In this document: piece after piece, positions 9,297-60,110 of the stretch
Numbering within the stretch: the stretch's first letter is position 1
Layout: the number at the start of each line of letters is the position of its first letter
Assembly: GCA_026066175.1 (NCBI GenBank)
Contig: GCA_026066175.1_4721.1
Direction: 5' to 3' (one strand)
Origin: a phage
Length of the DNA stretch: 64,000 nucleotides
Position numbers and translations under genes: made by a program
The notes under the pieces: generated by a model
Told to the model about the DNA's origin: nothing
The model's input: the letters and a program-made list of their open reading frames with translations, nothing else
Database searches by the model: none

Positions 9297-9355
9297 TTGG
9301 GAATCCTCTTTTTCTTAACTTTTAAATGACGTCATTGAATCAGCTTTTTCTCGCT

Positions 9356-9437
9356 CATTCACCTAGGTAATATAACCCTGAAATTTTTTTCAATATTGGT
9401 GCAACCTTATTGAACGATATAAACCCCCAGGTGAATG
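9356..9437 (-). promoter_or_regulatory. conserved AT-rich promoter-like element (TATTGAAAAAAAT..TATATTACCT) flanked by a 12-nt inverted repeat
   Basis: Plus 9365-9395 AGGTAATATAACCCTGAAATTTTTTTCAATA is near-identical to elements at 38275-38305 and 62429-62459. Inverted repeat arms CATTCACCTAGG (9356-9367) and CCAGGTGAATG (9427-9437). About 60-70 nt upstream of the ATG at 9296. Confidence 0.45.
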
Positions 9438-9534
9438 CTGCCGAGAAGCAACATTCTATCTACATATAATCAGGATATGTCTGTAAACTTTTACTTCTCG
9501 TCATATCCGTTTACTATCTTCTTACGGAGTTCGT

Positions 9535-46273: not shown

Positions 46274-49200
46274 ACCATCCGTTTTCTCGTCGTAGGGTTT
46301 CGTTTCACCGTATACAGACACAATGTTTGCGTTAGGTGCGAGGTAAGCAGAAATACCTACGTCCCCACTATCCTTCGTACCTTCGGATACAACACCAATG
46401 TCCGACTTGTCGTACTCACGATCGCGTGCGCGTCGAAGCGATGTTTTCGAACGACCCCCGATACCGGTCATCGTTGCTTCTTCACCCTGCTTGATATCCA
46501 GCATCGGGTTGGTTTCATCGATGACGATAGAAGCACTGTCGTCAAGGATTTGGTTCCAAACGCTCACCGGACTGATTGAGATCTTCTGTCGGTTGCCTTG
46601 GCTGCTGTTCTCGTTTTGACGAATAGCACCAACCAGATCCTTATACACCAACTCAGCGAACTTATCGTACGTTTTGAAGCGCTGGTAGTTCACGTCGTTC
46701 GTGTTAGGTGCCCAATCGTCCAGAAGCAGTTCAACCGCACGTAATAACAACATGGCGAAATCAGTCGGTTCGCCCATGTTCTGTAATAACGTACGACTTA
46801 CCGGGTCGACGAAAAGACGCTCCATGAGTTCAAGTTCGCGAAGATGACGAACCTTAAGACCTGCACCATCGACAACGTTAAAATAGATATCCCGATTGTC
46901 GAAAGCACCTCGAGCGTAACCAATGTAGTTACGGTATTCGTTGAATCCGCCTAACAACAATGTCGTCATTCGATCATCTTTACTGAAGATCAAACTTTCA
47001 TCGTCGAAGCTCACCGCGAATTCATCCGATGCTAATCCCATACGAGAACCACGAGGTACCGTACGGTAGTTCGCTTTAAGATGTTCTAATAACGGTGTAA
47101 GACCACCTAAGTAACTTAACACAACACCAACCGGAATACGTACGCCCATGAACTCAAGGTCAGCGGCTTCGATGGGCATCTTCGCGGCATTGATACCGAA
47201 GAAATCAGGGAACGTTCCAACCGGCGTTGGGGTTTGATTCGGTTCGTAAACGTATAACTGATTCTGACCATCCACCGCCAGGAATTCGCCGTTGGTGTTT
47301 TTGGCGAACGTTAAGAATCCACCCGCCAGCTGTTCGGTGAATAAATCTTCACCGATGTGTTCCGGCAACGTTTTGATATCGAGGCGTATGTCCCAATCCG
47401 CAAATTGGATTTGGGTGTAGTTACGTGCAAGCACCGCGAAGTAATACGGAACTTTGACAGACGGATCAAAGACGTTACCACGTTTTAAGGTGGTTAAGGG
47501 CGAGGTTTTATCGTAATACATCGCTGTGAGTTGACGTGTTAACCAACGACCAGCATTATTAACCACGCGTTCTGAACGCTTAACGAACACCTTACCGTAG
47601 GCGGTACTCAACGCAACTTCGGATGACGATACCTTTCTGATTGGTTTATCGACACGTTGTTTACGCATTCGATATTTAATGCCGTTAACGACATAAATGC
47701 CGTCCTTACGAACCTTCGGTAACATCACCGGGAACGTGGTCGGAACACCGCCTACCGGAGCCAGCTTGATCGTGATGACCTGGTAATCACCCATCACGTC
47801 AACAACATCTTCAACTTTATATCCGGTAACAGGATAGCCCGCTTGCTGCACCGCCACAACGGCTGCTGCGATGTCCTTTTGCATGACATGTTCGACGTAG
47901 TGTTTATCCCATACGGCAAGCGTCGATTTGCACAAGCTCTTATCAACGATAACGTCCGCTTCCGGCATCACCTTCTCAGGTGCTAATTTCGCGGCTTTTG
48001 GTTTAACCTCAACGTATTCAGCAAGCGTGAGTCCAGAACCGTCAGGTGCTTCAATTTCATGAATCGCGTCAGCGTTACGCATCGCTGCTTTATATTGAAC
48101 GCCGCTTAATTGACCAGCATCCGCGAGGTCGCTTGCACGTACCAGCACTGCATCGGATAACGACTGAATATATTCACCGTGCGTTTTCGGTAACGTTGCC
48201 GCATCGAAGACATCAACTTTTTCTTCCGGCATGTCATCGTTGACAACCTCAAAGAGATCATCGGTGATGTCTTGATCTTCGTCCGGTTGAAAATCGGGCT
48301 GAACTTCAACGCCAGGGACTTCACGAACATCTTCAAACGCACGTTCAACAACCGCGTTCCATGCTTCAGCGTCGTCATCTTCATCCGATCCTCCGATCAA
48401 CTCGCTTTCCAGTTCATCGGGGTCAAGAACGGTATCAAGGTCCTCACCGTTAGGAAGCACGACATCACGTTCATCGTACTCCGCATCGGGACTGTCTGCG
48501 AGAATATCACGCTCTTGACGAAGAACCTGCTCCTCTTCTTGTTTCTGTTCTTCTTCATTGGCGCTCTGCGACCACAGACGGGTTACCGCCATCATCCAAC
48601 GACGCTGGAACGTTTCAAGCGTTGTCTTATCAAGTTCCTCGCCTTCCTTCGCTAAACCCGAACGCCATTCTTCCATTAAACCAAGATTCAGAGTAAAGAA
48701 ATAGACGCCGTCCGTAAATACAACGTTAAGCTTATCCAGCGAAGCACGGTCCAATGATACCATCGTGCTGTTCTCACGATCGACACCTAACCAACGGAAG
48801 AAGTCAAAGAACGACAGCTCCTCGGAGGTGGCAAAATTCATGAGGTTATTACGGGTTGGGGCTTGTTGTGTCGTACGCATCAACGATATCTTCGGTAACG
48901 TCGACGGGATACGGAATAACAAGAACTGCTGACGGTCGCTTTGTTGGGCGATCTCGTTTGCTTGCGTCCAAATCGTTTTACGCACGTTGAACCATTCATC
49001 ATACCAACGGGTCAGTGTCGGACGATAGATGTACATGTGGTTAAGATGCGCATAGTTAGCCACGATCTGGGCGTTGATGTTCTTCTCAACCTTGCTAAGA
49101 TCGGTGACCAAACGAAAACGACGATGCGATGCACGGTAATCCAGTTTCGCACGCGGTAGCTGGAATCGCTGATCGCGTCGAGGTGCGCCTTGCTTGGTTG

Positions 49201-49423
49201 CAAGATCATCCGCGAATGATATCCAAAGCTGGGCGCTTTCTTTGCTCAGCATGTATTCGTTTTCAGGAGGACCGATTAACGAAGGATCGGTTGCTGTATA
49301 ATGATAAACCGCATAACGCGGCAGCTGCAAAAGCTGCACCAAACGCAATCTAGGTGATAATAACTCTTGATAACGTCGTACACCGAATTGTCTGTAGTAA
49401 TCAAGGTATTTAAGTTTTGCCAT
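46214..49423 (-). CDS. RNAP beta subunit, N-terminal segment (virion-RNAP-like set); last ~20 codons may be intronic read-through
   Basis: 1069 aa. C-terminal TGIGGRSKTSLRRARDREYD...EGTKDSGDVGISAYLAPNANIVSVYGETKPY matches beta LGPGGLTRERAGFEVRDVH...[30 protein letters not shown]. Start is translationally coupled to the upstream beta-prime gene. Confidence 0.6.
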   Translation of the reverse strand: MAKLKYLDYYRQFGVRRYQELLSPRLRLVQLLQLPRYAVYHYTATDPSLIGPPENEYMLSKESAQLWISFADDLATKQGAPRRDQRFQLPRAKLDYRASHRRFRLVTDLSKVEKNINAQIVANYAHLNHMYIYRPTLTRWYDEWFNVRKTIWTQANEIAQQSDRQQFLLFRIPSTLPKISLMRTTQQAPTRNNLMNFATSEELSFFDFFRWLGVDRENSTMVSLDRASLDKLNVVFTDGVYFFTLNLGLMEEWRSGLAKEGEELDKTTLETFQRRWMMAVTRLWSQSANEEEQKQEEEQVLRQERDILADSPDAEYDERDVVLPNGEDLDTVLDPDELESELIGGSDEDDDAEAWNAVVERAFEDVREVPGVEVQPDFQPDEDQDITDDLFEVVNDDMPEEKVDVFDAATLPKTHGEYIQSLSDAVLVRASDLADAGQLSGVQYKAAMRNADAIHEIEAPDGSGLTLAEYVEVKPKAAKLAPEKVMPEADVIVDKSLCKSTLAVWDKHYVEHVMQKDIAAAVVAVQQAGYPVTGYKVEDVVDVMGDYQVITIKLAPVGGVPTTFPVMLPKVRKDGIYVVNGIKYRMRKQRVDKPIRKVSSSEVALSTAYGKVFVKRSERVVNNAGRWLTRQLTAMYYDKTSPLTTLKRGNVFDPSVKVPYYFAVLARNYTQIQFADWDIRLDIKTLPEHIGEDLFTEQLAGGFLTFAKNTNGEFLAVDGQNQLYVYEPNQTPTPVGTFPDFFGINAAKMPIEAADLEFMGVRIPVGVVLSYLGGLTPLLEHLKANYRTVPRGSRMGLASDEFAVSFDDESLIFSKDDRMTTLLLGGFNEYRNYIGYARGAFDNRDIYFNVVDGAGLKVRHLRELELMERLFVDPVSRTLLQNMGEPTDFAMLLLRAVELLLDDWAPNTNDVNYQRFKTYDKFAELVYKDLVGAIRQNENSSQGNRQKISISPVSVWNQILDDSASIVIDETNPMLDIKQGEEATMTGIGGRSKTSLRRARDREYDKSDIGVVSEGTKDSGDVGISAYLAPNANIVSVYGETKPYDEKTDGSSSIMSTSALAVPAADRDD

Positions 49424-49426
49424 GAG

Positions 49427-51106
49427 TTAGGCTCCACGAGGTCCCGTTAAGTTGCGTAATAGGAACGCAACCGTATCGTAACCAATATCAATGTTGAATT
49501 TATTTTTACCGCTTACCCAGAAAGCACGCTTCTTGTGCGAGTTGGTAATTTCGTCGATGGCTTCCATGGAATAAAGAACGTTAACAGAGACCGTATCACC
49601 GTCGAAATCGGCCCCGAGCCCGGCGAGAAACACTTGGCCGACTTGGGTCGTTTCTACGAACGATGCTTTTAATGACCAATCTGGGTATTCCCACGCCATA
49701 TAACGATAGCCTTCCATCGGTTGCCAGCTATCGTCGAGTTCTATTCTCGGTTTTGTATTAACCGTCGTTCTCACATAGCAAGTTAACGGTATAACTGACT
49801 GCATCCCGGATACCGGATAACGTGTAACCATCGCACCGAGTTTATTCCAAAGATGGTAACCACTCAGATAAATCAACTCGCAATAGGTAATTGGGTGAAC
49901 ATTCGCACCAGGTTTGTTAAGCATCTCTGGTGGTAATTCACTCATACCACGGAACAGCCGGAATGAGTTGTTGTTCACATAGACCAAACAGAGATAGCGA
50001 CCATTCACCATGATAGGTTCGTTACGTACACCAGGATCGCTTAGGGTGTTTAATAAACGTTCGATGCCGTCCCAGGTTGTAAAGTCATCGATGGTATCTG
50101 GGTCTAGCGTGACACGTTCACGTTCCATCGTTTCGGTATCGATAAGCTCAGCTTCAGTAACATCGCGAACAAAGATTTCTTGTAATATCCCTGTACGTAA
50201 CGCATGTTGCGTTATCGGAAGGGCTGCTTTGCTCATCTGGTATAGGCCGAGCTGTACAGACGTACACGATGTTTGGTTTGGAGAGCCAAGAACTTCGGTC
50301 GTTGGAATAACTGCTGAAATAACGTTACGGGTTGAGTTCCAAACACGACGTGAACCGAACTTACCTTGGAAGATCCCTTTCTTACCCTGGAACATATCCA
50401 ACAGCAATGCGTAGATATCATTGAAGGTTCTTTGCAGGCTCCAGCGCTGTCCGTCGTAGACAGGATCGTTGTAGTCCTTTAACCCATCGGGAACGGTATT
50501 GGAGATAGCAAGGAAACGACGATAAAGCTCCGTGATTTCTTGTTCGCTTTCATACCCGCCTTCTTTTACTTCTATTTCACGAAGACCAGCAGGTAACACC
50601 AATAAATGACGGGTCATCGCTTTGAACATGTTTTCTTCGACAACTTTAATACGCAGTTCTCGTTGCGCTGAACCTGTTGAAACGAACATGATCTCCGCAA
50701 CGTGTTGTGCGAAGAAACCGTAGCCGGTTTGTCCCGTTAACGCATCAGCGGCAACGAAATCACGTTGTTCTGGATCCCATCGCGCATAAGCTTTACCGGA
50801 CATGATATCGCCATAAAGGTGTTTCAATCGAATAAGGCGATCGTAAATGACCGGATGCAAGATTTCCACTTTACACTCGATGACCGCAAAGCGGCGATCA
50901 CGATCTTCGCTTCCCGCGCTCCCAAAAATGGTGTACGAATAAAAACCATCGTCATGGAAATTACCCGTGCTCGGGTCGCGGATACTCATGCTGGTAATCT
51001 TAGGAAGGAAACGCAACTGCTGCTTATCAAGATGCAGTATACTGATATTGAACGGCTCTCTGACTTTAGCCATGGATGCACTCCTTAAATAAGGCGGCGG
51101 TATCAT
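49427..51106 (-). CDS. RNAP beta-prime N-terminal fragment with catalytic DFDGD motif (virion-RNAP-like set)
   Basis: 559 aa. FQGKKGIFQGKFGSRRVWNSTRNVISAVIP (beta-prime lid/rudder region) and LAGLGADFDGDTVSVNVLYSMEA (NADFDGD Mg-binding motif). My line count puts the start ATG 1 nt off the tracked coordinate; tracked coordinates are used. Confidence 0.8.
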   Translation of the reverse strand: MIPPPYLRSASMAKVREPFNISILHLDKQQLRFLPKITSMSIRDPSTGNFHDDGFYSYTIFGSAGSEDRDRRFAVIECKVEILHPVIYDRLIRLKHLYGDIMSGKAYARWDPEQRDFVAADALTGQTGYGFFAQHVAEIMFVSTGSAQRELRIKVVEENMFKAMTRHLLVLPAGLREIEVKEGGYESEQEITELYRRFLAISNTVPDGLKDYNDPVYDGQRWSLQRTFNDIYALLLDMFQGKKGIFQGKFGSRRVWNSTRNVISAVIPTTEVLGSPNQTSCTSVQLGLYQMSKAALPITQHALRTGILQEIFVRDVTEAELIDTETMERERVTLDPDTIDDFTTWDGIERLLNTLSDPGVRNEPIMVNGRYLCLVYVNNNSFRLFRGMSELPPEMLNKPGANVHPITYCELIYLSGYHLWNKLGAMVTRYPVSGMQSVIPLTCYVRTTVNTKPRIELDDSWQPMEGYRYMAWEYPDWSLKASFVETTQVGQVFLAGLGADFDGDTVSVNVLYSMEAIDEITNSHKKRAFWVSGKNKFNIDIGYDTVAFLLRNLTGPRGA

Positions 51107-51246
51107 CTGAACACATGAGAGACGTAATGGGTGAAGCCATCACCCATCGCTTCCCTGCTTGATGCGAGGAAGGTATTAAATTACGTACCTGTTCGACAGC
51201 ATCGAACAGGCGATGTATGAAGCTATGCTTCAATTTGGAGGTATAC

Positions 51247-54200
51247 ATGGTAGATAAAACCCGTGTTGAGGGTGATGATAATTGGGATAACTGGGATGAT
51301 GACTTCTCCCTGGATCTCGATTTTAACGAACCCAAAGACGATCGTAAACCGATAACACGCTTTGCGGTAGGCGCGGTTAAAGGTGCTGCTGAGGATCTTA
51401 CTTCCTACGAAAGAATGAAGGAGATCGCCAGAAACGCATTACCTAAGGGTTATAGCGACGGTATGGATCTTATCGATTCCGCCGTCGGATCCACGAAGGA
51501 ACTATACAATGAAGCCGTTCGTGACATTCTTCCGAAGGTACAAAGCTCAAAACGGTTAGCCGCACAACTGACGAAAAAATACCGTGCGAGCATGCCCGAT
51601 TTCTCGAAGAAAATCATCGAGCGTTGGGAGCAGGAAGCCAAGGAAGAAGACGAACGTAAGCAGGCGGAAGCCGATCTCAAACAACGCATGGCGAATGCAG
51701 GTGATGAAGAAATCGCTCGCAAGGTCGCTGAAGCGTTAGGCGAAGCGGCTAACCAGAACGCGGATCAGTTTGCGGAACAACAAGCAAAAGAAAGTATCCG
51801 TGACGATATTGCTGATAAACGTTATAATGTCACCAACAAACAGATGAGCGCGATGCAGGAAGGCATCGCCAAGATGGTTGGTTTCAATAACGAATTCGCC
51901 GCACGCTATATGCGTAAAAGCCTGGAACTGAAATACCGTTCTTTGGCGATACAACGCGCGAGTTTCGATCAGCATAAAAAGTTAGCCGAAGTCTATATCG
52001 GTTTATTACAGAACATCCAAAAGAACACAGCTTTACCGGATGCGGCTAAAGCAAAAATGTCGGAAGAATTTCGTCGTACGGCGTACCAACGTTTCTTTGG
52101 TAACGCATTGAATGCGATGAGTTCTTTCGAGAACCGTTTCTTTGCTGATGTTAAGAAAAACCTTGCAACCAATGCACTGGGTGCGTTAAAAGGTGTTGCG
52201 TCTGGTGCGCACGACGCCCTCTCTGGTTTAAACGAAGCACGTGACTCGATGTCCATGATGGACGGCATGGGGTCAGAAGGCGATATTAAGGAAATGCAAG
52301 GGAAGATGTTGGGTCAGTTAATCGGCTCAACCGTTGCACCATGGATGGCTAATAAAGGCATGACGGCATTGCGGGATTTAGCAAAACGCCATCCTAACGC
52401 TAAATTCGCCAACGCGTTAAAAGCGGTCGATCAAGGCGGTGAAGCTGCCGCTTATACAACGCGTAACGTCGGGAAACTGCTGCAAGAAGATATTCGTAAA
52501 AACGAATTCAACCTCAGCGATCCTTTCTACAAACAGTTCCTCCGTGGAGCTGGACGTTGGGCCTTCAATCTGGACGGCGGTCGTAACTTCCGTGTAATGA
52601 ACGACACCGCAGAGACATTAGCCGAACAAACGTCTTTCGATGGTTTAACCTATCGTAGCATCAACGAGGTCATTCCTGGATTTCTTGCTCGGATACTGAA
52701 AAGCACTGAAGGTATCCGTACCGGTGAAAGCGATCCTGATTACGAGGTCTATGATGGCATCAGTGGGCAATTCGTTGCTCAGCGTACCCGCGAGCAAGGC
52801 GTAACCGACACGCTCTTTAACAAACGCTCGTTCGGTTATTACGCCGGTCGTTTTAATGAAGTTATCTCGGTTATCGATCCTGATAAACAGCTGTCAGAAA
52901 AGGCAAGGAAAGCCTTGGCTAAACAGCTGGCACGCGACAGCGATGCGAACATGGCTTTCGATCCTGCTCGATATACCGACGAAAGTAACTTTGATCGCAG
53001 CATCGATAGAGACGCCATTAAAGAACTTTCTGCGTATTTCAAAGATCGTTACGGTATTCGTGATGATGTTGATGATGAAGGTAACCGTCAGCAGGTTATT
53101 GAAAACCGTGGGCAGTACTACACGGAACGTAACCGCGCTGACCTGCGGTACGGTAATCTGAAATCATTACAGCCGGATATCCAACGCAACCTTAACCTTC
53201 TGAAGCGTACCGGTGATATTCAATACCTGGAACGTATCGGGATCGTAACAAGAAACAGCGATGGCAGTTATTCGGTTAATCACGATCGTTACTTCTCTGA
53301 AATCGATCGATACATCGACCGACCGGAATATGCTGACCGCGGCGATGTTAACACGCGACTCAGTGCCCAACAGACCAGGGCGTTAGCGTTAGGCTATCGT
53401 GATGACGTTGCATCAAACACTGACGTACAAAATCGTGCGTTACCAAACCTTGATCGAACAACGGTCGGGACGGTAAACATCGATGAGAACATCGGGTACG
53501 AGAAATGGTGGAACGACGCGGGTGTTATCACCACATCGCTTGAAGACCAAAATCGCGCATGGCAAGAACTCTATCTTGAAGCGCTTCAGGAAGCTTCACA
53601 TCAGCGTGAAACAATGCTGGAACTTCTGAAAGCGATCTCAGAAAAAGAATGGGGTGGTAACGGCATTGGACTCCAGGGCGAACCTGGCGGGGAAGAAAGT
53701 GATGATCGCTCTATGTTAAGTCGGATCTCCGACTTAACACTGGGTAAAGCCGGTAGCTATGCCTGGAAAGGTGCGAAAGGGGCTACCAAGTTCGGATGGA
53801 AATGGGGTCGAAAAGCGGCAACATGGGGCGCGAAACGTACATGGGGAAGCTTCGTAAACTCAGCGCGTCGAATTATCAACTTCAACCGTTTTGTGTTTGG
53901 CGCATTATCTAAGGTCGATCAAGTTCCGTTTGACATTTACGTTAAAGGTGAAGATCGTCCACGTATCTTAGCTGCGAAACTTCGTCAAGGTCTTTATTTC
54001 GATGAAGCCACCGGCAAAGCCGTCAAACGGATGAAGGATATTAAAGGTCCGTTAGTTGATGCTGATGGCAATATCGTCATCAGCGCTGAAGATATCGAGA
54101 AGGGCTTGATTACGCGTGCTGGACGCGCCTTCGAAAACTCCGGTTTGAAAGCATGGGCACGTGAAGGTATTAACGGTATCACCACGGTCTTAAGTTTACC

Positions 54201-57200
54201 AAGACTTTTAAAGCGTGGTGCTACGGAGCTGTACAAGCATTTCGATAAAACACCTGATGTATACGTGGCCGGTGAATCCACCCCACGTTTGCTTTCTCTG
54301 GTGATGGCAGCTGGCGGTTATTTCCGTAAGTCCGATGGGAAAGTCATCAAGCATCTGGAAGACATCGACGGTGATGTGGTTGACGCACAAGGAAACGTCA
54401 TCCTGACCCACGCTGATATGCAGAAAGGGTTGGTCGATAAATACGGTAAGAAGATACGTCGCCTGAAAGAAAAGCTGATCAACTTCGGTGTGAAAGCTTT
54501 CACCTTACCGTTAACCTTATTGCGTAAGACAAAAGACATCCTGAAGAATCTCCCCACGAAAGCCATGAACGGGTTGCGTCGTATGGGCCTGAACTTCCGT
54601 TTACCGGAAGAGGTGCTTATCGGTACAACCGCAGGCATGGTGGATCGTCTTGACGCTATTTATCAGCTTCTTGATAAACGCATGCCGGGTGGAGATAAGG
54701 ATTATCGTGATTGGAACGGTGACGGTGTCCGTGAAGGATCGCTTGAAGATCTGAAACGTAAACGCGCTGAGAAAGAAGGAGAAAAAGGAGAAGGTACAGG
54801 TAAAGGATCCGGGAAAGGAGAAGAGAAGGAGAAGAAAAAAGGAATTCTTGGGAGCCTTTTCGACATGCTTGGTGACACCGCACTTGGTAAACGTTTAATG
54901 GCGAGTCCGCTTGGAAAGATTCTGGGTGGCCTTGGATCCATTCTCAGTGGTGGTGCATCATTAACGGGGTTACTCGGGAAAGGTTTGCTTAAAGGCTCAG
55001 GCGCACTCCTCAGAGGGGGTTTAAGTGCTGCGGGTTGGTTAGGGCGCGGTGCTCTGATGGCGGGCGGTGCTGCGCTTAATGCGGTAGGAGGATTATCCGG
55101 GCTTGGTGCTGCGCTTATCTCCCCGGTTGGGTTAGCGATTGCCGGTGGGGCATTAGCGGTATACGTAGGCTGGAAGATCTATCAGCATTATGCTGAGAAA
55201 CCTGACCCGATGCAGAAGCTTCGTCTTATTGCATACGGTGCAAAAGGGGATGACAAGGACTTCAACAAGAAGTTATTACAAACTGAAACCTACCTTACCG
55301 ACCATGTGGTCATGACGGGAGATACCATCGGATTCAATCCAAAAGCGGATTCTGAAAAGATTCTTGAAATCTGGGAACTGTCATTGGAAGATACCGACCG
55401 GATGAATGAATGGAAGCGCTGGTATCTGCATCGCTTTATCCCCGTTTTCGCTCGTGCGTATAAGCTCTGGAAAGAGCATATGCCGGACGAGAAGAAGTAC
55501 ATGGAGATGGACGACTACCCCAACGGTGAGAACAAGGTCAAATGGTCGGAAGCCTTCATCTGGCCATCGGACAGTCCAGACAGCCCGTACTATGTTGAAG
55601 CTAACCCGTTAGGTTCGGCTGGCGCAACGTTATACATCGCAGGGCAAGATGTTAAAAAGCTCATGGAGAGCCAACTGGAAGTCATCAGGAAAGAATATCA
55701 AAACCAGATCAAGAAATACACGCACGATGAAGCGATTAAAGACTGGTCGAAGATGTCTGACGCTCAGCGTAAATCTGTTGCACCTAACGCGTTACGTGGT
55801 CAGAAAGCCTCTTTACGTTTCAACGACAAACGTTATAACAGTGCGGGTGTTAAAGGTCGTCAGAAACTGGACGCTACCGCGGTTGTTGAAAGCGTGGATC
55901 GTCGCGGTAAGAAATGGATGGCCGGTGGGTATATTGATGAACTTACCAGTTTGCGTATCCGTGCGTATGGGTTAGAGGTTCCGCTGTTAAGCCAAATCAA
56001 GGTATTGATGGAACTGGAAGACGCGGTTGAACCTGGCGTTGTTGCTGAAGGTAAAGGCGTCAAATACGGCGGTAATCTCGCGGAGCTGTATAAGAAGTTC
56101 GCGTCTAAGTTCGGTCGGGATGTCAACGGCAAACAAGACCAGAACATCTGGTTCGCCTGGATGAACAACCGTTTCTTGCCGGTCTTCTTAACGTACTATC
56201 AGCAAGTTGGCGAGATGGGCGGACAAGGGCTGTTATCAGATGTTGTACAGAATCTGAAAGACAGCCAGCGTTGGGAAATCGGTGAGGCGTTGGTTGCTGC
56301 GCAATACAAGGATGAGAAGGGTGCGCTACAGCCGGTATGGTCGTGGAACAGTTGTGGTTTCTCTGGCACCAAAGCAAACATGTCCAGCAGTTCAACCAAG
56401 AGCCAACTCGATCTGTTAAAAGAATACGCAGATAAAGAGAAGGTTCGTGAGAAGAACGCTGAAGCATCGCAGGAGGATGAAGATAAATTATCGAAAATCC
56501 AAGAGCAGTTGATGAAGCAAGCGGGATATGAGAAGAAGGACGGTGTTTGGCAGAAGAAATCACGTATCACGGGTGGGATGAGCAACGCGGAGGCGAACTA
56601 CAATCCGAACCGTAACGAGGTTGGCAGAAGTAGCTTTACTGCTTCAGCAACCTCCAGCGCAGGTTTGGGTAGTGGTGGACCGGATATCACCGGGTTACCG
56701 AACATGGGACTGAAGAAACCCGCATCAGGTCCTGGTCCAGAAGCGGGTCGTCGTGCGGCAATTAAATCAGCGGTGAAGCACGGTATTACCGATCCGATGG
56801 AAATGGCGATGTTCTTATCGAACCTCGAACATGAATCCGGTAACTACAGGTATGTCCGCGAACTTAACTACACAAAACCCGAAAGTCTGAAGAAAGCGTT
56901 CAACCGGAAATTCAGGGATGAACAAGACGCTGCGCAGACCATCAGCATGGGTCCAGAGGCTGTATTCGAACGTGTTTATGGCATGCGTAAGGACCTGGGA
57001 AATACCCAGAAAGGTGACGGAGCGAAATATCTGGGGCGTAGTTATATCCAGGTTACAGGCAAAGCCAACTACGCACGATTGTCGAAGATCCTGAATAAAG
57101 ATCTGGTTAGCGATCCATCGTATTTGGAAACCCCAGAAGGTGCAGCCGAAGGGAGTGTTGCATGGTGGCTTAACAGGGGTAACGTATTACGTGATCCTGC

Positions 57201-57918
57201 AAAGCGTGGCGATGTGCGCCAGGTTCGTTATCTGGTTAACGGAGGATATAATGGGCTACGCGATGTTGAGCAACGTTCAGCGTATTGGATTCAAGCTGCT
57301 AAAAGCGGCACGTTGAAGAAAATGATGGATGAGGTTGCGGGTGCAACCTCGGACGATCAAGCTGAAGGTCCGTCTACCGCCAGCCAAGTGAAGAACGAGG
57401 AGGCGCAAGAAACCAACAGCACGCCAACGTCAAGCAACGATCCGCAAGCACCGACGGCGACCACGACGCCTGAAGTCAAACCATCAGCGGCCTCCGGCAC
57501 TGCACCCGCACCCGGAACGGCAACACCGACACCAGGAAGTTTCGATACCGCAAAAGCTGCTGCTGGACAACCAGCATCAACACCAGCACCTAGCGATTTA
57601 CCGTCAAACCCTGGTGCAAATCGAGGAATTTCAGTTCCAAATACACCCGCGCAGGTTGCGCAGTCCGCAACACAAACATCGGCAGCAAGTGAAAACTTCT
57701 ACGGTAGTGCAGGTGAGATTCTTCGTCAGCAGTTGACCGTGCAACAAAACATCGAGAAGAACACCGGTAAGACCAACGAACTTATCTCAGAATTGATCCA
57801 GGCTGTTAAAGGGTCAACGATCGGTAAAGGTTCGACAGGATCTTCTCAACAACAGACGATGTCGCTACCTAATCGTCCGCAAGGGATCTCTCCAACACGG
57901 ACAAGGTACGCGCAGTAG
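51247..57918 (+). CDS. giant virion-associated protein with C-terminal GH19-type lysozyme domain (phiKZ gp181-like structural lysin)
   Basis: Start at the second ATG (TTTGGAGG SD); about 2223 aa. Lysozyme signatures FLSNLEHESGNY (catalytic Glu context) and LGRSYIQVTGKANY (GH19 signature 2-like) at about 56760-57200. Gly/Ala/Leu-rich hydrophobic segment at about 54840-55190. Two tandem ~108-aa internal repeats at about 53940-54450. Ser/Thr/Pro/Ala-rich C-terminal tail. Confidence 0.7.
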   Translation: MVDKTRVEGDDNWDNWDDDFSLDLDFNEPKDDRKPITRFAVGAVKGAAEDLTSYERMKEIARNALPKGYSDGMDLIDSAVGSTKELYNEAVRDILPKVQSSKRLAAQLTKKYRASMPDFSKKIIERWEQEAKEEDERKQAEADLKQRMANAGDEEIARKVAEALGEAANQNADQFAEQQAKESIRDDIADKRYNVTNKQMSAMQEGIAKMVGFNNEFAARYMRKSLELKYRSLAIQRASFDQHKKLAEVYIGLLQNIQKNTALPDAAKAKMSEEFRRTAYQRFFGNALNAMSSFENRFFADVKKNLATNALGALKGVASGAHDALSGLNEARDSMSMMDGMGSEGDIKEMQGKMLGQLIGSTVAPWMANKGMTALRDLAKRHPNAKFANALKAVDQGGEAAAYTTRNVGKLLQEDIRKNEFNLSDPFYKQFLRGAGRWAFNLDGGRNFRVMNDTAETLAEQTSFDGLTYRSINEVIPGFLARILKSTEGIRTGESDPDYEVYDGISGQFVAQRTREQGVTDTLFNKRSFGYYAGRFNEVISVIDPDKQLSEKARKALAKQLARDSDANMAFDPARYTDESNFDRSIDRDAIKELSAYFKDRYGIRDDVDDEGNRQQVIENRGQYYTERNRADLRYGNLKSLQPDIQRNLNLLKRTGDIQYLERIGIVTRNSDGSYSVNHDRYFSEIDRYIDRPEYADRGDVNTRLSAQQTRALALGYRDDVASNTDVQNRALPNLDRTTVGTVNIDENIGYEKWWNDAGVITTSLEDQNRAWQELYLEALQEASHQRETMLELLKAISEKEWGGNGIGLQGEPGGEESDDRSMLSRISDLTLGKAGSYAWKGAKGATKFGWKWGRKAATWGAKRTWGSFVNSARRIINFNRFVFGALSKVDQVPFDIYVKGEDRPRILAAKLRQGLYFDEATGKAVKRMKDIKGPLVDADGNIVISAEDIEKGLITRAGRAFENSGLKAWAREGINGITTVLSLPRLLKRGATELYKHFDKTPDVYVAGESTPRLLSLVMAAGGYFRKSDGKVIKHLEDIDGDVVDAQGNVILTHADMQKGLVDKYGKKIRRLKEKLINFGVKAFTLPLTLLRKTKDILKNLPTKAMNGLRRMGLNFRLPEEVLIGTTAGMVDRLDAIYQLLDKRMPGGDKDYRDWNGDGVREGSLEDLKRKRAEKEGEKGEGTGKGSGKGEEKEKKKGILGSLFDMLGDTALGKRLMASPLGKILGGLGSILSGGASLTGLLGKGLLKGSGALLRGGLSAAGWLGRGALMAGGAALNAVGGLSGLGAALISPVGLAIAGGALAVYVGWKIYQHYAEKPDPMQKLRLIAYGAKGDDKDFNKKLLQTETYLTDHVVMTGDTIGFNPKADSEKILEIWELSLEDTDRMNEWKRWYLHRFIPVFARAYKLWKEHMPDEKKYMEMDDYPNGENKVKWSEAFIWPSDSPDSPYYVEANPLGSAGATLYIAGQDVKKLMESQLEVIRKEYQNQIKKYTHDEAIKDWSKMSDAQRKSVAPNALRGQKASLRFNDKRYNSAGVKGRQKLDATAVVESVDRRGKKWMAGGYIDELTSLRIRAYGLEVPLLSQIKVLMELEDAVEPGVVAEGKGVKYGGNLAELYKKFASKFGRDVNGKQDQNIWFAWMNNRFLPVFLTYYQQVGEMGGQGLLSDVVQNLKDSQRWEIGEALVAAQYKDEKGALQPVWSWNSCGFSGTKANMSSSSTKSQLDLLKEYADKEKVREKNAEASQEDEDKLSKIQEQLMKQAGYEKKDGVWQKKSRITGGMSNAEANYNPNRNEVGRSSFTASATSSAGLGSGGPDITGLPNMGLKKPASGPGPEAGRRAAIKSAVKHGITDPMEMAMFLSNLEHESGNYRYVRELNYTKPESLKKAFNRKFRDEQDAAQTISMGPEAVFERVYGMRKDLGNTQKGDGAKYLGRSYIQVTGKANYARLSKILNKDLVSDPSYLETPEGAAEGSVAWWLNRGNVLRDPAKRGDVRQVRYLVNGGYNGLRDVEQRSAYWIQAAKSGTLKKMMDEVAGATSDDQAEGPSTASQVKNEEAQETNSTPTSSNDPQAPTATTTPEVKPSAASGTAPAPGTATPTPGSFDTAKAAAGQPASTPAPSDLPSNPGANRGISVPNTPAQVAQSATQTSAASENFYGSAGEILRQQLTVQQNIEKNTGKTNELISELIQAVKGSTIGKGSTGSSQQQTMSLPNRPQGISPTRTRYAQ

Positions 57919-57968: not shown

Positions 57969-60110
57969 ATGGGTATTCTTGTTCAAAACGCCCTCATCAC
58001 AAAACAAGCCTTTTTATTACCCGGTGACAGCAGCACGCTTAGTGCTGACATGATTAAAGCGAGACATACACCCTATTCCTACGATAACGTCGATGATACA
58101 ACACTGGGTGGGAACTGGGTACTTAACCCGCCACCGCAATATACGAAATTTGCTGATATCAAAGAACGACGGCGTGCAGTTATGCCTGGATCAACAGGTA
58201 TGGGACGTGGGTACAGTGAAAGCATCAACAGCTTTAAAGAAGTTGTTACATTACGATTCGGTAAACCACGTTTTACAGGTGCGAGTATCTTCTTTACTGA
58301 TTTCTACGACGCCGATGTTGCGGTCACCGTGAAAACCGGTCGTGACCCAGGTATTCTTTATTACGCCGCCAAAGCGTATACCACCGTGCTTTCTTATCTC
58401 ACACCGTTACCTTATATCTACATGCTGGGTCGTATCGGCCGATACTTCATGGGCAAACCAACCAGTCAGTACTACTATCAAGTACCGACCATGCATGTAT
58501 ACTGGTCCTCGTTCCAGACGTTGGTTAACCAAGCAGCAATAAACATGGGTATCGTTGCGGGGATGGGTAAGGACAAAGGGTATGTCGAGGAAGGCGGTAC
58601 CGTACTCCACCAATTCTCGATTGGTGGTCAGGATGTTGAAGAATTCATCAACTACGCTTCTAAAACGCTCCCAGGCATTTATAAGAAAGGCGGTGGGATC
58701 GATATCTATCAAATTGCAACACGTCGCCAACGCATACAGAACGCATGGGTTCGACGTATTCAATCCATGATGGAGAACGATTACGCGTCTTACGAGGAAT
58801 TCTGGAACGATCTTGATAAACGACTCGATAGCGGAGCATTTCCATCGGACGTTACCGGCCGTACGCTAACACAGTACCTTGCTGATACACAGAAGTCTGC
58901 CGTTTACAGTGCTGCAGCAGGTGATAACAAACAGACGATGGACGACCTGTTATTCGGCAGGGCTTCCTACAGCAACAAAGATGCTGATGCTAACTTCAAT
59001 ATCTCTGCTGCCACCTCCGACGGCGGTACGTCAGCACAAAGTCAGGGTACGACAGCTAACGTCGGTAATTCAACATCGGGGACAACGCAAGCTTCAACCG
59101 CAGCATCAACGGCTGGAGGTGCGAACGTACAGAGCAAAGGCATCGGGCAAACGAATGCGGCTGAAGAAGCGACGTTCCTTGATCTGATGGATGCCGAACT
59201 GGCCGATGGTGCTCAGTTTATCAGTTTTCGGGTCGATTCTGTAACCAGTGTAACCGAAACATTCTCAAACAGCGCTTCGGAAAGTTCAATCGCACAAACG
59301 ATGAACAGCAAAGCGCAGGCGAACATCGAACGACGTTTTACGTTGTCTGGCGGTCAAACCGGCTGGGCTATGCTGGACGCGGCGATAAAGGGTGTGTCGG
59401 ATACCATCAACGGTGCTATTTCAGGAATGGGTTTGGATGGTATCTTTGGTGCCTTCATGGGTTCTGGCTTCGCAGACATTCCAAAGTTCTATTCTGGGTC
59501 ATCGGTAAGCCTTCCACGTGCAGATCTGACAATGGAATTACGTTCCTGGAGTGGAGATCGTTGGTCGATCTTTACGAACCTCATGGTACCGCTTTTAGCG
59601 ATCCTTGCAGGCGGTTTACCGCAGTCTACCGGTAAATCGTCTTACGGGATGCCATTCATGTGCGAGTGTTATATTCCTGGTAAGGTCCAGATTAAAATGG
59701 GTCTTATTGATAATATCACAGTTACACGCCATGTCGGGAACGTGCCGTCAACACGTGAACGCTTACCGTTAGGTATTGATGTCAGTTTCAGTGTGTATGA
59801 CCTGTCGTCGATCGTTGCAATGCCGATCACCACCACAGCAGCATCATTAGCAAAATTGGATCCTCGTGGCTTCTTAAGTGATCTTCTTGCTGATGATACG
59901 CCGCTGAACAACTATCTTGCTGTGTTATCGGCGTTGACGCTTACCGAACAGGTTTACATGATCCCAGATTTAAGTCGTCGTATGCATAAGACCATGGCTG
60001 ATATCGATAGTTTCTGGAGCAAAGGTAATTTTGCTAACTGGTTATCGGACACCATGCCTGGCAGGATAGCATCAGGGCTGTTATGGAAACGTACCGAACG
60101 ACCGTTCTGA
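57969..60110 (+). CDS. hypothetical virion-associated protein
   Basis: 713 aa, GAGG SD. Ser/Thr/Gly-rich linker and a Gly-rich hydrophobic segment (GAISGMGLDGIFGAFMGSGF); co-transcribed with the giant lysin-domain gene. Confidence 0.5.
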   Translation: MGILVQNALITKQAFLLPGDSSTLSADMIKARHTPYSYDNVDDTTLGGNWVLNPPPQYTKFADIKERRRAVMPGSTGMGRGYSESINSFKEVVTLRFGKPRFTGASIFFTDFYDADVAVTVKTGRDPGILYYAAKAYTTVLSYLTPLPYIYMLGRIGRYFMGKPTSQYYYQVPTMHVYWSSFQTLVNQAAINMGIVAGMGKDKGYVEEGGTVLHQFSIGGQDVEEFINYASKTLPGIYKKGGGIDIYQIATRRQRIQNAWVRRIQSMMENDYASYEEFWNDLDKRLDSGAFPSDVTGRTLTQYLADTQKSAVYSAAAGDNKQTMDDLLFGRASYSNKDADANFNISAATSDGGTSAQSQGTTANVGNSTSGTTQASTAASTAGGANVQSKGIGQTNAAEEATFLDLMDAELADGAQFISFRVDSVTSVTETFSNSASESSIAQTMNSKAQANIERRFTLSGGQTGWAMLDAAIKGVSDTINGAISGMGLDGIFGAFMGSGFADIPKFYSGSSVSLPRADLTMELRSWSGDRWSIFTNLMVPLLAILAGGLPQSTGKSSYGMPFMCECYIPGKVQIKMGLIDNITVTRHVGNVPSTRERLPLGIDVSFSVYDLSSIVAMPITTTAASLAKLDPRGFLSDLLADDTPLNNYLAVLSALTLTEQVYMIPDLSRRMHKTMADIDSFWSKGNFANWLSDTMPGRIASGLLWKRTERPF

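What the first reader, a model, noticed from the sequence alone, without database searches (positions are those of the whole stretch)
51247..57918. 2233-aa virion protein with a GH19-type lysozyme domain, glycine-zipper segment and internal tandem repeats
The C-terminal region carries FLSNLEHESGNY and LGRSYIQVTGKANY, matching the catalytic-Glu and signature-2 regions of GH19/lysozyme-like hydrolases. It sits inside a giant protein with an N-terminal coiled-coil-like region, two tandem ~108-aa repeats (DIYVKGEDRPRILAAKLRQGLYFDEATGKAVKRMKDIKGPLVDADGNIVISAEDIEKGLI vs DVYVAGESTPRLLSLVMAAGGYFRKSDGKVIKHLEDIDGDVVDAQGNVILTHADMQKGLV), a ~110-aa Gly/Ala/Leu-rich hydrophobic segment and a Ser/Thr/Pro-rich tail. 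Size and position next to RNAP genes parallel the structural lysin phiKZ gp181. The internal repeats and the GH19-type (rather than SLT-type) motif context may be lineage-specific.
Basis: partly seen in the sequence, partly recalled or inferred. Interest (0 to 1): 0.5.

Follow-up and report, generated by a model that had tools for sequence, protein, structure and literature searches.

The report
Giant phage tail protein carrying lysin
This gene encodes the roughly 2,220-residue giant tail protein of a Goslar-like jumbo phage of E. coli, with a GH19 cell-wall-cutting enzyme near its end; it belongs to the known phiKZ gp181 family, so the finding is correct but ordinary.

Summary
The ORF is real: 51217..57918 gives 2233 aa, and the likely start at 51247 gives 2223 aa. 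It is 87.6% identical in protein to Goslar gp204 (YP_009820915.1, "putative chitinase"/"tail fiber protein"). That orthologue was detected in purified Goslar virions at about 3-8 copies.

All are present: both GH19 motifs, two 108-aa repeats, a 114-aa Gly/Leu/Ala hydrophobic segment and a Ser/Thr/Pro-rich tail.
- **GH19 assignment.** It holds: hits to solved GH19 endolysins reach E=2e-21, the predicted fold matches, and the Glu-Glu-Thr catalytic set is conserved. Pfam PF00182 itself stays below threshold.
- **Corrections.** The hydrophobic segment is not a canonical glycine zipper. Neither the repeats nor the GH19 context is lineage-specific. The repeat module occurs in 118 of 121 family members and in about 1,280 clusters of giant proteins. 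GH19 is one of several enzyme domains (SLT, M23, CHAP, VanY) swapped in at the same position.
- **New here.** A second, diverged tandem duplication (M1/M2).
- **Best reading.** A tail-lumen, tape-measure-type ejection protein organised like T5 Pb2: helical N-terminus, membrane-inserting segment, muralytic domain, C-terminal anchor.

It is a new member of a known kind. Its place in the virion is still unresolved in both published cryo-EM atlases.

The parts
51247..57918 (+). CDS of the giant tail protein (2223 aa plus stop). An alternative upstream ATG at 51217 would give 2233 aa.
   Evidence: ORF list. GGAGG lies 5 nt before the 51247 ATG. The 98%-identical P0001 is 2223 aa. The gene is 81% nt and 87.6% aa identical to Goslar gp204.
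51349..52581 (+). Residues 35-445: N-terminal region predicted as long alpha-helices (tape-measure-like).
   Evidence: AlphaFold2 DSSP gives helices 67-110, 118-196, 211-260, 265-338 and 347-381, with pLDDT mostly 30-75. The region is part of the phrog_3201 match 11-1172, E=2.5e-298. BFVD gives only weak, non-significant matches to tape measure proteins.
52582..53361 (+). Residues 446-705: folded alpha/beta domain of unknown function, carrying the most conserved family motif (S-I-x-E-V-I-P-G-F-L-A-R-I).
   Evidence: pLDDT is 80-93 over residues 500-700. Columns P477 and L480 are invariant. There is no PDB fold match with E<=0.001 and no Pfam hit.
53362..53916 (+). Residues 706-890: variable, low-confidence linker with helices.
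   Evidence: It is the least conserved block against Goslar (63% identity versus 88% overall). pLDDT is below 50.
53917..54243 (+). R1, residues 891-999: first copy of the about 110-aa family repeat (about 70-aa beta-rich core plus a basic amphipathic helix).
   Evidence: Self-alignment z=27. HMM E=1.6e-36. pLDDT about 80. No PDB or Pfam relative.
54244..54582 (+). R2, residues 1000-1112: second copy of the repeat.
   Evidence: The module is family-wide, with 1-6 copies.
54583..54840 (+). Residues 1113-1198: Lys/Glu/Gly-rich charged linker.
   Evidence: Composition table: 15 K/R and 13 D/E in residues 1151-1200. pLDDT is low.
54841..55182 (+). Residues 1199-1312: Gly/Leu/Ala-rich hydrophobic segment ending in a TM-like helix (1280-1308). 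Proposed membrane-inserting element.
   Evidence: Composition and hydropathy. An equivalent segment is present in nearly all 120 homologues. It is not a GxxxG zipper. Its function is inferred by analogy with T5 Pb2.
55183..55746 (+). M1, residues 1313-1500: first copy of a second, diverged tandem module (motif LRxxxYG ... WxxWxxxRF(I/L)PVF).
   Evidence: Smith-Waterman 73 against 36 +/- 6, with 0 of 1000 shuffles reaching it. hhalign M1 against M2 gives probability 99.6%, E=9e-25 over 160 columns. pLDDT 77-92. No Pfam or PDB relative.
55912..56481 (+). M2, residues 1556-1745: second copy of the M module.
   Evidence: pLDDT 85-96.
56734..57345 (+). Residues 1830-2033: GH19 (endolysin-subfamily) muramidase-like domain. 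Catalytic candidates are E1863, E1872 and T1937.
   Evidence: PDB sequence hits. Foldseek hits. phrog_181 endolysin, E=1.5e-48. The active-site set is conserved in all GH19-type giants. Residue roles are taken from PMC12329726 and PMC8547705.
57346..57690 (+). Residues 2034-2148: Ser/Thr/Pro/Ala-rich disordered tail.
   Evidence: Composition. pLDDT below 50. A tryptic peptide from the equivalent Goslar stretch was found in virions.
57691..57915 (+). Residues 2149-2223: conserved C-terminal helical segment (family motif LxxQLxVQ). Proposed anchor in the baseplate hub.
   Evidence: Helices at 2134-2188. Family consensus. 93% identity to Goslar. There is a sub-threshold Talin_R4 helical-bundle hit only. 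The anchoring role is inferred from T5 Pb2.
57969..60110 (+). Downstream gene (713 aa): orthologue of Goslar gp203 and phiKZ gp182, the spacer ring of the tail-tube initiator complex in the baseplate centre.
   Evidence: phrog_3181, E=3.6e-173. Synteny with Goslar, Miami and PA7. Structural assignments come from the Goslar and phiKZ cryo-EM papers.
49427..51106 (-). Divergently transcribed upstream gene (559 aa): virion RNA polymerase beta-type subunit (Goslar gp205 orthologue).
   Evidence: phrog_2986, E=1e-179. 91% identity to Goslar gp205.

Best explanation
This is the Goslar-clade member of the phiKZ gp181 / SPN3US gp239 family, the essential giant tail protein of phiKZ-like (chimalli-type) jumbo phages.

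**Shown**
- It is orthologous to Goslar gp204, which is present in purified virions at a few copies.
- It has a conserved modular architecture, in this order: helical N-terminus; folded alpha/beta domain; R repeats; charged linker; Gly/Leu/Ala hydrophobic segment; M1-M2 tandem modules; peptidoglycan hydrolase; Ser/Thr/Pro linker; conserved C-terminal helices.
- The hydrolase here is a GH19 endolysin-type domain with an intact Glu-Glu-Thr catalytic set.

**Inferred mechanism**
- Three to six copies lie inside the unusually wide tail-tube lumen.
- The C-terminal helices are docked in the baseplate centre, next to the product of the adjacent gene (the spacer ring).
- The protein probably templates tail assembly or length, as a tape measure does.
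- On sheath contraction it is expelled ahead of the DNA.
- The GH19 domain then cuts MurNAc-GlcNAc bonds locally in the periplasm.
- The hydrophobic segment inserts into a host membrane to help form the DNA and protein conduit.

This is the same logic as the T5 tape measure protein Pb2.

The stated confidence is for the whole statement. The identity part alone I put near 0.97, and the inferred mechanism near 0.6.
For: **Identity**
- 81% nt and 87.6% aa identity to Goslar gp204.
- phrog_3201, E=2.5e-298 over residues 11-1172.
- 133 homologues, mostly 2,150-2,500 aa.

**Gene order**
- The order vRNAP beta genes, giant gene, baseplate spacer gene is conserved in Goslar, Klebsiella phage Miami and the phiKZ-like phage PA7.

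**Virion and tail association**
- Goslar orthologue: 34 peptides, about 3.4-8 copies per virion, labelled 'Tail protein' and not modelled.
- SPN3US gp239 (259 kDa) is called the tail tape measure protein and is more than 10-fold depleted in tailless particles.

**Not the spike**
- The spike, hub, spacer and tube-initiator positions are all assigned to other proteins in Goslar and phiKZ.

**Space in the lumen (my arithmetic)**
- The phiKZ lumen is about 68 A wide. The Goslar tube is 46 rings x 39.2 A, about 1,800 A.
- That gives about 6.5e6 A^3, against about 3e5 A^3 per 245-kDa copy. Three to six copies would fill only 14-28%, and folded 20-kDa domains fit.

**GH19 domain**
-. PaGH19Lys (9eoi) is a proven muramidase with E51, E60 and T129. 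These align to E1863, E1872 and T1937 (E60 pairs with E1872 only in the ungapped 9-residue register, see evidence against).

**T5 Pb2 parallel**
- Pb2 has a coiled coil, a hydrophobic stretch, a muralytic domain and a C-terminal helix bound in the hub.

**Conservation**
- The hydrophobic segment, the R modules, the M modules and the C-terminal motif are family-wide.
Against: - No structure places the protein. It is absent from the 28-protein Goslar model and from the 40-protein phiKZ atlas.
- No experiment links its length to tail length.
- Only about 400 N-terminal residues are predicted as extended helix, and at low confidence. Much of the rest folds into globular domains, unlike classical rulers.
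- If it were fully helical, 2,223 residues would span about 3,300 A, nearly twice the tube length.
- The membrane-insertion and hub-anchor roles rest on analogy only.
- Pfam GH19 is below threshold.
- In HMMER's gapped alignment the second catalytic Glu is offset by one residue. E1872 fits only on the ungapped 9-residue spacing.
- Muralytic activity has been measured for the SLT domain of phiKZ gp181, not for any GH19-type giant.
Confidence: 0.68

Rival explanations
1. It is an ejected conduit or cargo protein but not a length ruler. The protein would be stored in the tail lumen (or partly in the head) only to be injected. It would then digest peptidoglycan and build the trans-envelope channel, like the T7 internal core protein gp16. 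Tail length would be set by something else.
For: - Most of the chain is predicted as globular modules rather than one long coiled coil.
- R-module copy number varies from 1 to 6 without a proportional change in total length. For example, P0025 has 4 copies in 2,223 aa.
- No length-determination experiment exists.
- Chimalliviruses are known to inject many virion proteins.
Against: - Total length clusters tightly around 2,200-2,300 aa in many diverged members.
- The gene sits next to the tube-initiator/spacer gene, as tape-measure genes do.
- SPN3US gp239 tracks with tails, not heads.
- No other candidate tape measure protein has been named in Goslar or phiKZ.
Confidence: 0.2
2. It is a component of the needle-like cell-puncturing device at the baseplate tip. 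This was the original proposal for phiKZ gp181.
For: A review lists gp181 as a 'needle-like cell-puncturing device, putative trimer', citing Briers 2008 and Fokine 2008. The lysin domain is analogous to T4 gp5.
Against: Cryo-EM assigns the spike, spike tip, hub, pin, spacer and tube initiator to other gene products. In phiKZ these are gp164, gp163.1, gp101, gp174, gp182 and gp88. In Goslar they are gp13, gp48, gp203 and gp62. AlphaFold2 predicts no beta-helix or OB-fold spike domain.
Confidence: 0.04
3. It is a tail fibre or receptor-binding protein, as labelled by PHROG 3201, RefSeq and many GenBank records.
For: The database label 'tail fiber protein'.
Against: - No fibre-type fold, carbohydrate-binding domain or trimeric beta-structure is predicted.
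- The protein contains a hydrophobic membrane-like segment and a lysin.
- It is present at only about 3-8 copies.
- The Goslar fibre and filament proteins are assigned to other families, such as DUF7941.
- The label appears to be propagated annotation, not a tested function.
Confidence: 0.03
4. It is the phage's endolysin, acting from within at the end of infection.
For: The GH19 domain is homologous to true endolysins.
Against: A 245-kDa virion-packaged protein with this conserved tail-gene context is not a lysis-cassette product. phiKZ uses a separate endolysin, gp144, and a separate lysis cassette.
Confidence: 0.02

Closest known systems
Escherichia phage Goslar gp204 (YP_009820915.1; GenBank Goslar_00232 'putative chitinase', RefSeq 'tail fiber protein')
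   Same: Direct orthologue, 87.6% aa identity over 97% of the length, with the same GH19 domain, the same modules and the same neighbours. It was detected in purified virions.
   Different: Divergence is concentrated in the 706-890 linker (63% identity). Goslar is annotated from an upstream start (2252 aa). The window's phage also differs in where its vRNAP genes carry introns.
Pseudomonas phage phiKZ gp181 (2237 aa structural peptidoglycan hydrolase; Briers et al. 2008)
   Same: Same family and size. The N-terminal region, R repeats, hydrophobic segment, M modules and C-terminal motif are homologous. It has the same position between the vRNAP genes and gp182. From my recollection of Briers 2008, not checked here, its lysin domain lies at about residues 1880-2042, against 1830-2033 here. 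It is essential and is considered the likely tape measure.
   Different: The catalytic domain of the phiKZ-type majority is an SLT / lytic transglycosylase (PF01464). This is seen in about 68 of the 120 listed homologues and in the family consensus. Here it is a GH19 hydrolase, which has a different chemistry: an inverting hydrolase rather than a lytic transglycosylase. Overall identity is about 24%.
Salmonella phage SPN3US gp239 and Klebsiella phage Miami gp231 (annotated tape measure proteins)
   Same: Giant homologues, explicitly called tail tape measure proteins. SPN3US gp239 is tail-associated by mass spectrometry of tailless mutants. In Miami the tblastn match extends through query residue 2077, so it covers the GH19 region, and the synteny is identical.
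   Different: Distant in sequence (about 25%). The tape-measure role is an assignment, not a demonstrated function.
Phage T5 tape measure protein Pb2
   Same: Same functional layout: helical region, then a hydrophobic stretch proposed to form a membrane channel, then a muralytic domain, then C-terminal helices bound as a trimer in the baseplate hub. It is expelled from the lumen on receptor binding.
   Different: No detectable homology. Pb2 is from a siphophage, is about half the size, and has a zinc-peptidase-type muralytic motif that is cleaved off during assembly. It has no R or M modules. No cleavage is known for this family.
GH19 endolysins: SPN1S endolysin (4ok7), PaGH19Lys (9eoi), KTN6 gp46 (8p8e)
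   Same: 27-30% identity over about 200 residues, with the same fold in the predicted model. H-E, E, Y, Q-x-T, N and R active-site residues are conserved.
   Different: Those are free-standing proteins of about 200 aa acting at lysis. Here the domain is embedded near the C-terminus of a virion protein. It reads GRS instead of GRG before the Q-x-T motif.

Membership tests
Glycoside hydrolase family 19 (endolysin subfamily) | Significant sequence similarity to characterised GH19 endolysins | tested here: met
   phmmer against PDB: 7r6s 2.4e-21, 9eoi 1.4e-19, 4ok7 8.9e-16, 8p8e 3.2e-14, over residues 1838-2048. phrog_181 endolysin, 1.5e-48.
Glycoside hydrolase family 19 (endolysin subfamily) | Match to Pfam PF00182 (Glyco_hydro_19) at or above the gathering score | tested here: not met
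   13.5 bits for the whole protein and 17.8 bits for the isolated domain, against a cut-off of 25.5. Only 40 residues around the second motif match. The Pfam model is chitinase-centred. Six more distant giant homologues do carry a PF00182 label.
Glycoside hydrolase family 19 (endolysin subfamily) | Two catalytic glutamates plus the Ser/Thr that positions the water (E49/E58/T130 in SPN1S numbering; E51/E60/T129 in PaGH19Lys) | tested here: met
   E1863, E1872 (9 residues apart, as in PaGH19Lys) and T1937 are present, together with H1862, Y1911, Q1935, N1998 and R2010 (residue roles). E, E, Y, Q, T and N are conserved in the 11 full-length GH19-domain hits among the giants. HMMER's gap placement shifts the second Glu by one position.
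Glycoside hydrolase family 19 (endolysin subfamily) | Bilobal alpha-helical lysozyme-superfamily fold | tested here: met
   For the AlphaFold2 model (pLDDT 77-93 over 1830-2033), the top Foldseek PDB hits are eight GH19 endolysin-type structures (probability 1.00, TM-score to target 0.48-0.77). Streptomyces and plant GH19 chitinases follow. This is a predicted model, not a solved structure.
Glycoside hydrolase family 19 (endolysin subfamily) | Hydrolysis of the MurNAc-GlcNAc bond (muramidase activity) | not testable with these tools
   This needs a purified 1830-2035 fragment, a lysis assay and muropeptide LC-MS.
phiKZ gp181 / SPN3US gp239 giant tail protein family | Homology across the non-catalytic body of the protein | tested here: met
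   phrog_3201, E=2.5e-298 over residues 11-1172. 133 homologues. tblastn hits in phiKZ-like, EL-like, Erwinia, Klebsiella, Vibrio and Ralstonia jumbo phages. BFVD structural hits to the N-terminal halves of family members, E down to 3e-28.
phiKZ gp181 / SPN3US gp239 giant tail protein family | Conserved gene position: divergent from the vRNAP beta-subunit genes and directly upstream of the baseplate spacer gene (phiKZ gp182) | tested here: met
   Window ORFs and PHROG hits. The same order is seen in Goslar, Miami and PA7.
phiKZ gp181 / SPN3US gp239 giant tail protein family | Peptidoglycan hydrolase domain about 200-400 residues before the C-terminus | tested here: met
   The GH19 domain lies at 1830-2033 of 2223. 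The position is the same as in the family consensus, but the family majority carries SLT.
phiKZ gp181 / SPN3US gp239 giant tail protein family | Structural (virion, tail-associated) protein | not testable with these tools
   This is shown for the orthologues only: Goslar virion mass spectrometry and SPN3US tailless-particle comparison.
Tail tape measure protein (functional class) | Located in the tail-tube lumen and anchored in the baseplate hub | not testable with these tools
   The protein is not modelled in the Goslar or phiKZ cryo-EM atlases. By volume, the lumen has ample room (my inference).
Tail tape measure protein (functional class) | Predominantly extended alpha-helical chain whose length scales with tail length | tested here: inconclusive
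   Residues 35-445 are predicted helical at low confidence. The remainder is mostly folded modules and linkers. No tail-length series was available. BFVD matches to annotated tape measure proteins are non-significant (probability 0.35 or lower).
Tail tape measure protein (functional class) | Three or six copies per virion | tested here: inconclusive
   The label-free estimate for the Goslar orthologue is 3.4-8 copies, mid value 5.1. This is compatible with 3 or 6 but is imprecise.
Glycine-zipper membrane segment | Repeated GxxxG / GxxxGxxxG spacing | tested here: not met
   There are 3 GxxxG and no GxxxGxxxG motifs in 1199-1312, against 7.5 +/- 2.1 and 1.8 in shuffles. Family-wide, Gly-Gly spacing of 4 has observed/expected 0.75, while spacings of 5-7 are mildly enriched.

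The most novel reading that the evidence does not exclude
The conserved central block (R repeats, charged linker, Gly/Leu/Ala hydrophobic segment, M1-M2 modules) has no relative in Pfam or the PDB and seems confined to these giant proteins. It could be the machinery that reshapes the host inner membrane at the tail tip. It would not merely form a pore. It would seed the lipid 'early phage infection' vesicle into which chimalliviruses inject their DNA and proteins. That would make this protein the phage-encoded initiator of that compartment.
Probability: 0.1. Interest if true: 0.8.

Novelty: new member of a known kind. Interest (0 to 1): 0.27.

Why it matters
For this window it matters little. 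The gene is a close orthologue of an annotated Goslar gene and belongs to a family whose lysin activity (phiKZ gp181), essentiality and probable tape-measure role are already in the literature.

The wider family is still worth attention.
- It is the largest and an essential gene of phiKZ-like phages.
- It is missing from both recent whole-virion cryo-EM models.
- It probably acts at the moment the tail crosses the cell wall and inner membrane, which is when the early infection vesicle appears.

This analysis adds three points.
- The architecture is fixed across more than 1,000 sequence clusters.
- The enzyme cassette is exchangeable at one position (SLT, GH19, M23, CHAP, VanY and others).
- Two uncharacterised modules (R, at 1-6 copies, and the M1/M2 pair) are family hallmarks.

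The GH19 domain is also a plausible, easily tested enzybiotic candidate against E. coli.

Tried and rejected
- **Pfam and NCBIfam.** I searched the whole protein and eight segments. Nothing reached a curated threshold. The best hits were GH19 at 17.8 of 25.5 bits and Talin_R4 at 19.4 of 27.
- **Foldseek against PDB, N-terminal half.** No hit at E<=0.001. The weak winged-helix and flagellin-like matches were discarded.
- **Foldseek against PDB, C-terminal half.** Only the GH19 domain matched. Nothing matched M1 or M2.
- **Profile searches of R and M modules.** Against PDB sequences the best E-values were 0.39 and 0.25. Pfam gave nothing.
- **BFVD.** It re-found the family. Beyond that it gave only non-significant tape-measure-like matches.
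- **Glycine zipper.** Tested and rejected.
- **Promoter and terminator scan around the gene.** It found fewer sites than in shuffles, so it was uninformative.
- **Structure prediction input.** The first 81-sequence alignment was too large. I used 34 sequences instead, so the models are of moderate quality (mean pLDDT 57 and 64).
- **Literature.** Neither the Goslar preprint text nor the phiKZ atlas mentions the protein by name or as a tape measure. The early-vesicle preprint does not mention it either, nor does the core-genome preprint.
- **Numerical coincidence.** The 1,198 residues before the hydrophobic segment would, at 1.5 A per residue, equal the roughly 1,800-A Goslar tube. I do not count this as evidence, because that part is not predicted to be one continuous helix.

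Full report
**Observation.** The + strand carries an open reading frame from 51217 to 57918, which is 2233 codons from the first ATG. It is preceded by GGAGG and gives 2223 aa. This matches a 98%-identical 2223-aa metagenomic orthologue (P0001) and the N-terminal consensus of the family. I use the 2223-aa numbering throughout.

- The two GH19-like motifs are at residues 1856 and 1929.
- The two repeats have a period of 108 aa. Their Smith-Waterman score is 167, against 29 +/- 5 in 500 shuffles.
- The hydrophobic segment 1199-1312 has 30 Gly, 25 Leu and 17 Ala, and one strong TM-like window at 1280-1308.
- A Ser/Thr/Pro-rich stretch spans 2034-2148.

One label fails. The hydrophobic segment has only three GxxxG motifs and no GxxxGxxxG, fewer than in shuffles. 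The same depletion holds across the family. It is therefore not a canonical glycine zipper.

**Identity of the gene.** The DNA is 81% identical, and the protein 87.6% identical, to one gene of Escherichia phage Goslar, a nucleus-forming jumbo phage. That gene is Goslar_00232 'putative chitinase' in GenBank and HOV27_gp204 'tail fiber protein' (YP_009820915.1) in RefSeq.

The neighbours are also orthologous.
- Upstream and divergent are virion RNA polymerase beta-type subunits.
- Downstream is the orthologue of Goslar gp203 and phiKZ gp182. Cryo-EM places this protein as the six-fold spacer ring of the tube-initiator complex in the baseplate centre.
- The same three-gene arrangement is found in Klebsiella phage Miami, where the giant gene is annotated 'tape measure protein', and in the phiKZ-like phage PA7.

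**The family.**
- PHROG 3201 matches residues 11-1172 at E=2.5e-298.
- A search of 5.8 billion proteins returned 133 homologues, mostly 2,150-2,500 aa.
- The catalytic domain differs among them. About 68 of the 120 listed carry SLT (PF01464). Six carry a Pfam GH19 label. Others carry M23, CHAP, VanY or phage tail lysozyme domains, sometimes in combination.
- The five Goslar-clade proteins have no Pfam label but contain the same GH19 domain.
- Cultured jumbo phages whose match extends through, or ends within, the GH19 region (query end 2014-2077) include Miami, N1M2, Erwinia AH04, Burkholderia SURPRISE13, Shewanella SXP01 and EL-like Pseudomonas phages. Ralstonia RSL2 is also GH19-type.

The GH19 context is therefore one of several interchangeable cassettes at a fixed position. 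It is not a peculiarity of this lineage.

**The GH19 domain.** Pfam PF00182 is below its gathering score, at 13.5 and 17.8 bits against 25.5, and covers only 40 residues. Direct comparison with solved structures is unambiguous.
- 7r6s gives 2.4e-21, 9eoi (PaGH19Lys) 1.4e-19, 4ok7 (SPN1S endolysin) 8.9e-16 and 8p8e 3.2e-14.
- PaGH19Lys is an experimentally proven muramidase. Its active site comprises H50, E51, E60, Y103, Q127, T129, I187, N188 and R197.
- The GH19 database paper gives E49, E58 and T130 as the endolysin catalytic set.
- In the printed alignment these correspond to H1862, E1863, E1872 (on the conserved 9-residue spacing), Y1911, Q1935, T1937, V1997, N1998 and R2010.
- E, E, Y, Q, T and N are conserved in the 11 full-length GH19-domain hits among the giants.
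- In the AlphaFold2 model this domain has pLDDT 77-93. Its best Foldseek hits in the PDB are eight GH19 endolysin-type structures, followed by bacterial and plant GH19 chitinases.

**Anatomy of the rest.** AlphaFold2 was run on the two halves with 34-sequence alignments, giving mean pLDDT of 57 and 64. The picture is as follows.
- Residues 35-445 are long helices at low confidence.
- Residues 446-705 form a well-folded alpha/beta domain (pLDDT 80-93) that carries the most conserved family motif.
- Residues 706-890 are a variable linker, only 63% identical to Goslar.
- R1 (891-999) and R2 (1000-1112) each have a beta-rich core of about 70 aa followed by a basic amphipathic helix.
- Next come a Lys/Glu/Gly linker and then the hydrophobic segment.
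- Two confidently folded modules follow, M1 (about 1313-1500) and M2 (about 1556-1745).
- After a linker comes the GH19 domain, then the Ser/Thr/Pro tail.
- Conserved C-terminal helices end the protein. AlphaFold2 places them at 2134-2188, and the conserved block runs to residue 2223.

The Smith-Waterman score is 73, against 36 +/- 6 with 0 of 1000 shuffles reaching it. Profile-profile probability is 99.6%, E=9e-25. Both copies appear in the family consensus.

The R module is present in 118 of 121 family sequences, at 1-5 copies. A profile of it, searched against 1.84 billion representative proteins, finds 1,281 clusters. The best 150 are almost all 1,600-3,450 aa, with 2-6 copies. Neither R, nor M, nor the 446-705 domain has any relative in Pfam or the PDB, by sequence profile or by Foldseek on these multi-domain models.

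**How it most likely works.**

Shown for orthologues:
- The Goslar protein is in CsCl-purified virions with 34 peptides, including one from the C-terminal Ser/Thr/Pro region. The estimate is 3.4-8 copies per virion.
- SPN3US gp239 is depleted more than 10-fold in tailless particles and is called the tape measure protein.
- phiKZ orf181 tolerates no transposon insertion and is described as the likely tape measure.

Shown by others' structures:
- The spike, hub, spacer and tube initiator are other proteins. This removes the older idea that gp181 is the cell-puncturing needle.
- Neither atlas models this protein.

Inference:
- The protein lies in the tube lumen. The phiKZ lumen is about 68 A wide and the Goslar tube is about 1,800 A long (46 x 39.2 A).
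- That gives about 6.5e6 A^3, against about 3e5 A^3 per copy. Three to six copies, including folded 20-kDa domains, would fit comfortably.
- The order of elements mirrors the T5 tape measure protein Pb2: helical region, hydrophobic stretch, muralytic domain, C-terminal helices.
- In T5 Pb2 the C-terminal helices sit as a trimer in the hub. The hydrophobic stretch is proposed to form the membrane channel. The muralytic part digests peptidoglycan after expulsion.
- I therefore propose the same sequence here: docking of residues 2149-2223 near the spacer/hub, expulsion on contraction, local MurNAc-GlcNAc hydrolysis by the GH19 domain, and membrane insertion of 1199-1312.
- The ruler function itself is untested. 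It is weakened by the largely globular prediction. A cargo-only role is the main rival.

**Comparison and novelty.**
- Membership of the gp181/gp239 family is met on homology, size, synteny and lysin position.
- Membership of GH19 is met on similarity to characterised members, catalytic residues and predicted fold, but not on the Pfam threshold.
- Membership of the functional class 'tape measure' remains inconclusive.
- The gene is a new member of a known kind.
- What is not yet in the literature I could search is the family-wide description of the R and M modules and of the cassette-like exchange of the enzyme domain. These are properties of the family, not of this window.

**Noticed in passing.** The vRNAP beta gene orthologous to Goslar gp207 is split in this phage after residue 1069. 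The insert is about 1.6 kb and holds a group I intron (Rfam RF00028, 51.4 bits, 44729-45152 on the minus strand) and a 403-aa HNH endonuclease ORF. Goslar instead carries a different intron-plus-endonuclease insert of about 2.0 kb near the 3' end of the neighbouring subunit gene. This phage lacks that insert.

Noticed in passing
window 43472-49423 (minus strand); insert about 44603-46213: The virion RNA polymerase beta gene, contiguous in Goslar as gp207 (1448 aa), is split here. One part is a 1069-aa ORF (46214..49423, 95.7% identical to gp207 residues 1-1069). The other is a 376-aa ORF (43472..44602, 99.5% identical to residues 1073-1448). Between them lie a group I intron (Rfam RF00028, 51.4 bits, 44729-45152 on the minus strand) and a 403-aa HNH endonuclease ORF (44927..46138, phrog_59).
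   Followed up: partly
window about 49606-49647 (inside ORF 49427..51106, minus strand) versus L001 (Goslar) 8245-10329: Goslar has an insert of about 2.0 kb near the 3' end of the gp205 orthologue. It contains an annotated group I intron and gp206, an endonuclease-like protein 27% identical to the window's HNH ORF. This phage lacks that insert, and its ORF is intact at 559 aa. The two close relatives therefore carry mobile introns at different sites in their vRNAP genes.
   Followed up: partly
window 55183-55746 and 55912-56481: A second, strongly diverged tandem duplication (M1/M2, motif LRxxxYG ... WxxWxxxRF(I/L)PVF) lies inside the giant protein. hhalign gives probability 99.6%. The modules are conserved across the family, are confidently folded in AlphaFold2, and have no Pfam or PDB relative.
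   Followed up: yes
window 51217 versus 51247: There are two in-frame ATGs 30 nt apart. The second has the Shine-Dalgarno sequence and matches the orthologue's length and the family consensus. Goslar's GenBank annotation starts further upstream (2252 aa), which may be an over-extension.
   Followed up: partly
homologues P0006-P0120 and P0121-P0256: Across the family, the enzyme domain near the C-terminus is exchanged like a cassette: SLT, GH19, M23, CHAP, VanY, phage tail lysozyme and Peptidase_S74, sometimes two or three together. R-module copy number ranges from 1 to 6 without a proportional change in total length.
   Followed up: partly
homologues P0006, P0058, P0059, P0066: Several family members are filed under bacterial names (Caballeronia, Paraburkholderia), on contigs of 140-490 kb. 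One is named 'cell pole-organizing protein PopZ'. These are probably jumbo-phage contigs or misassigned sequences in bacterial assemblies, with misleading names.
   Followed up: no
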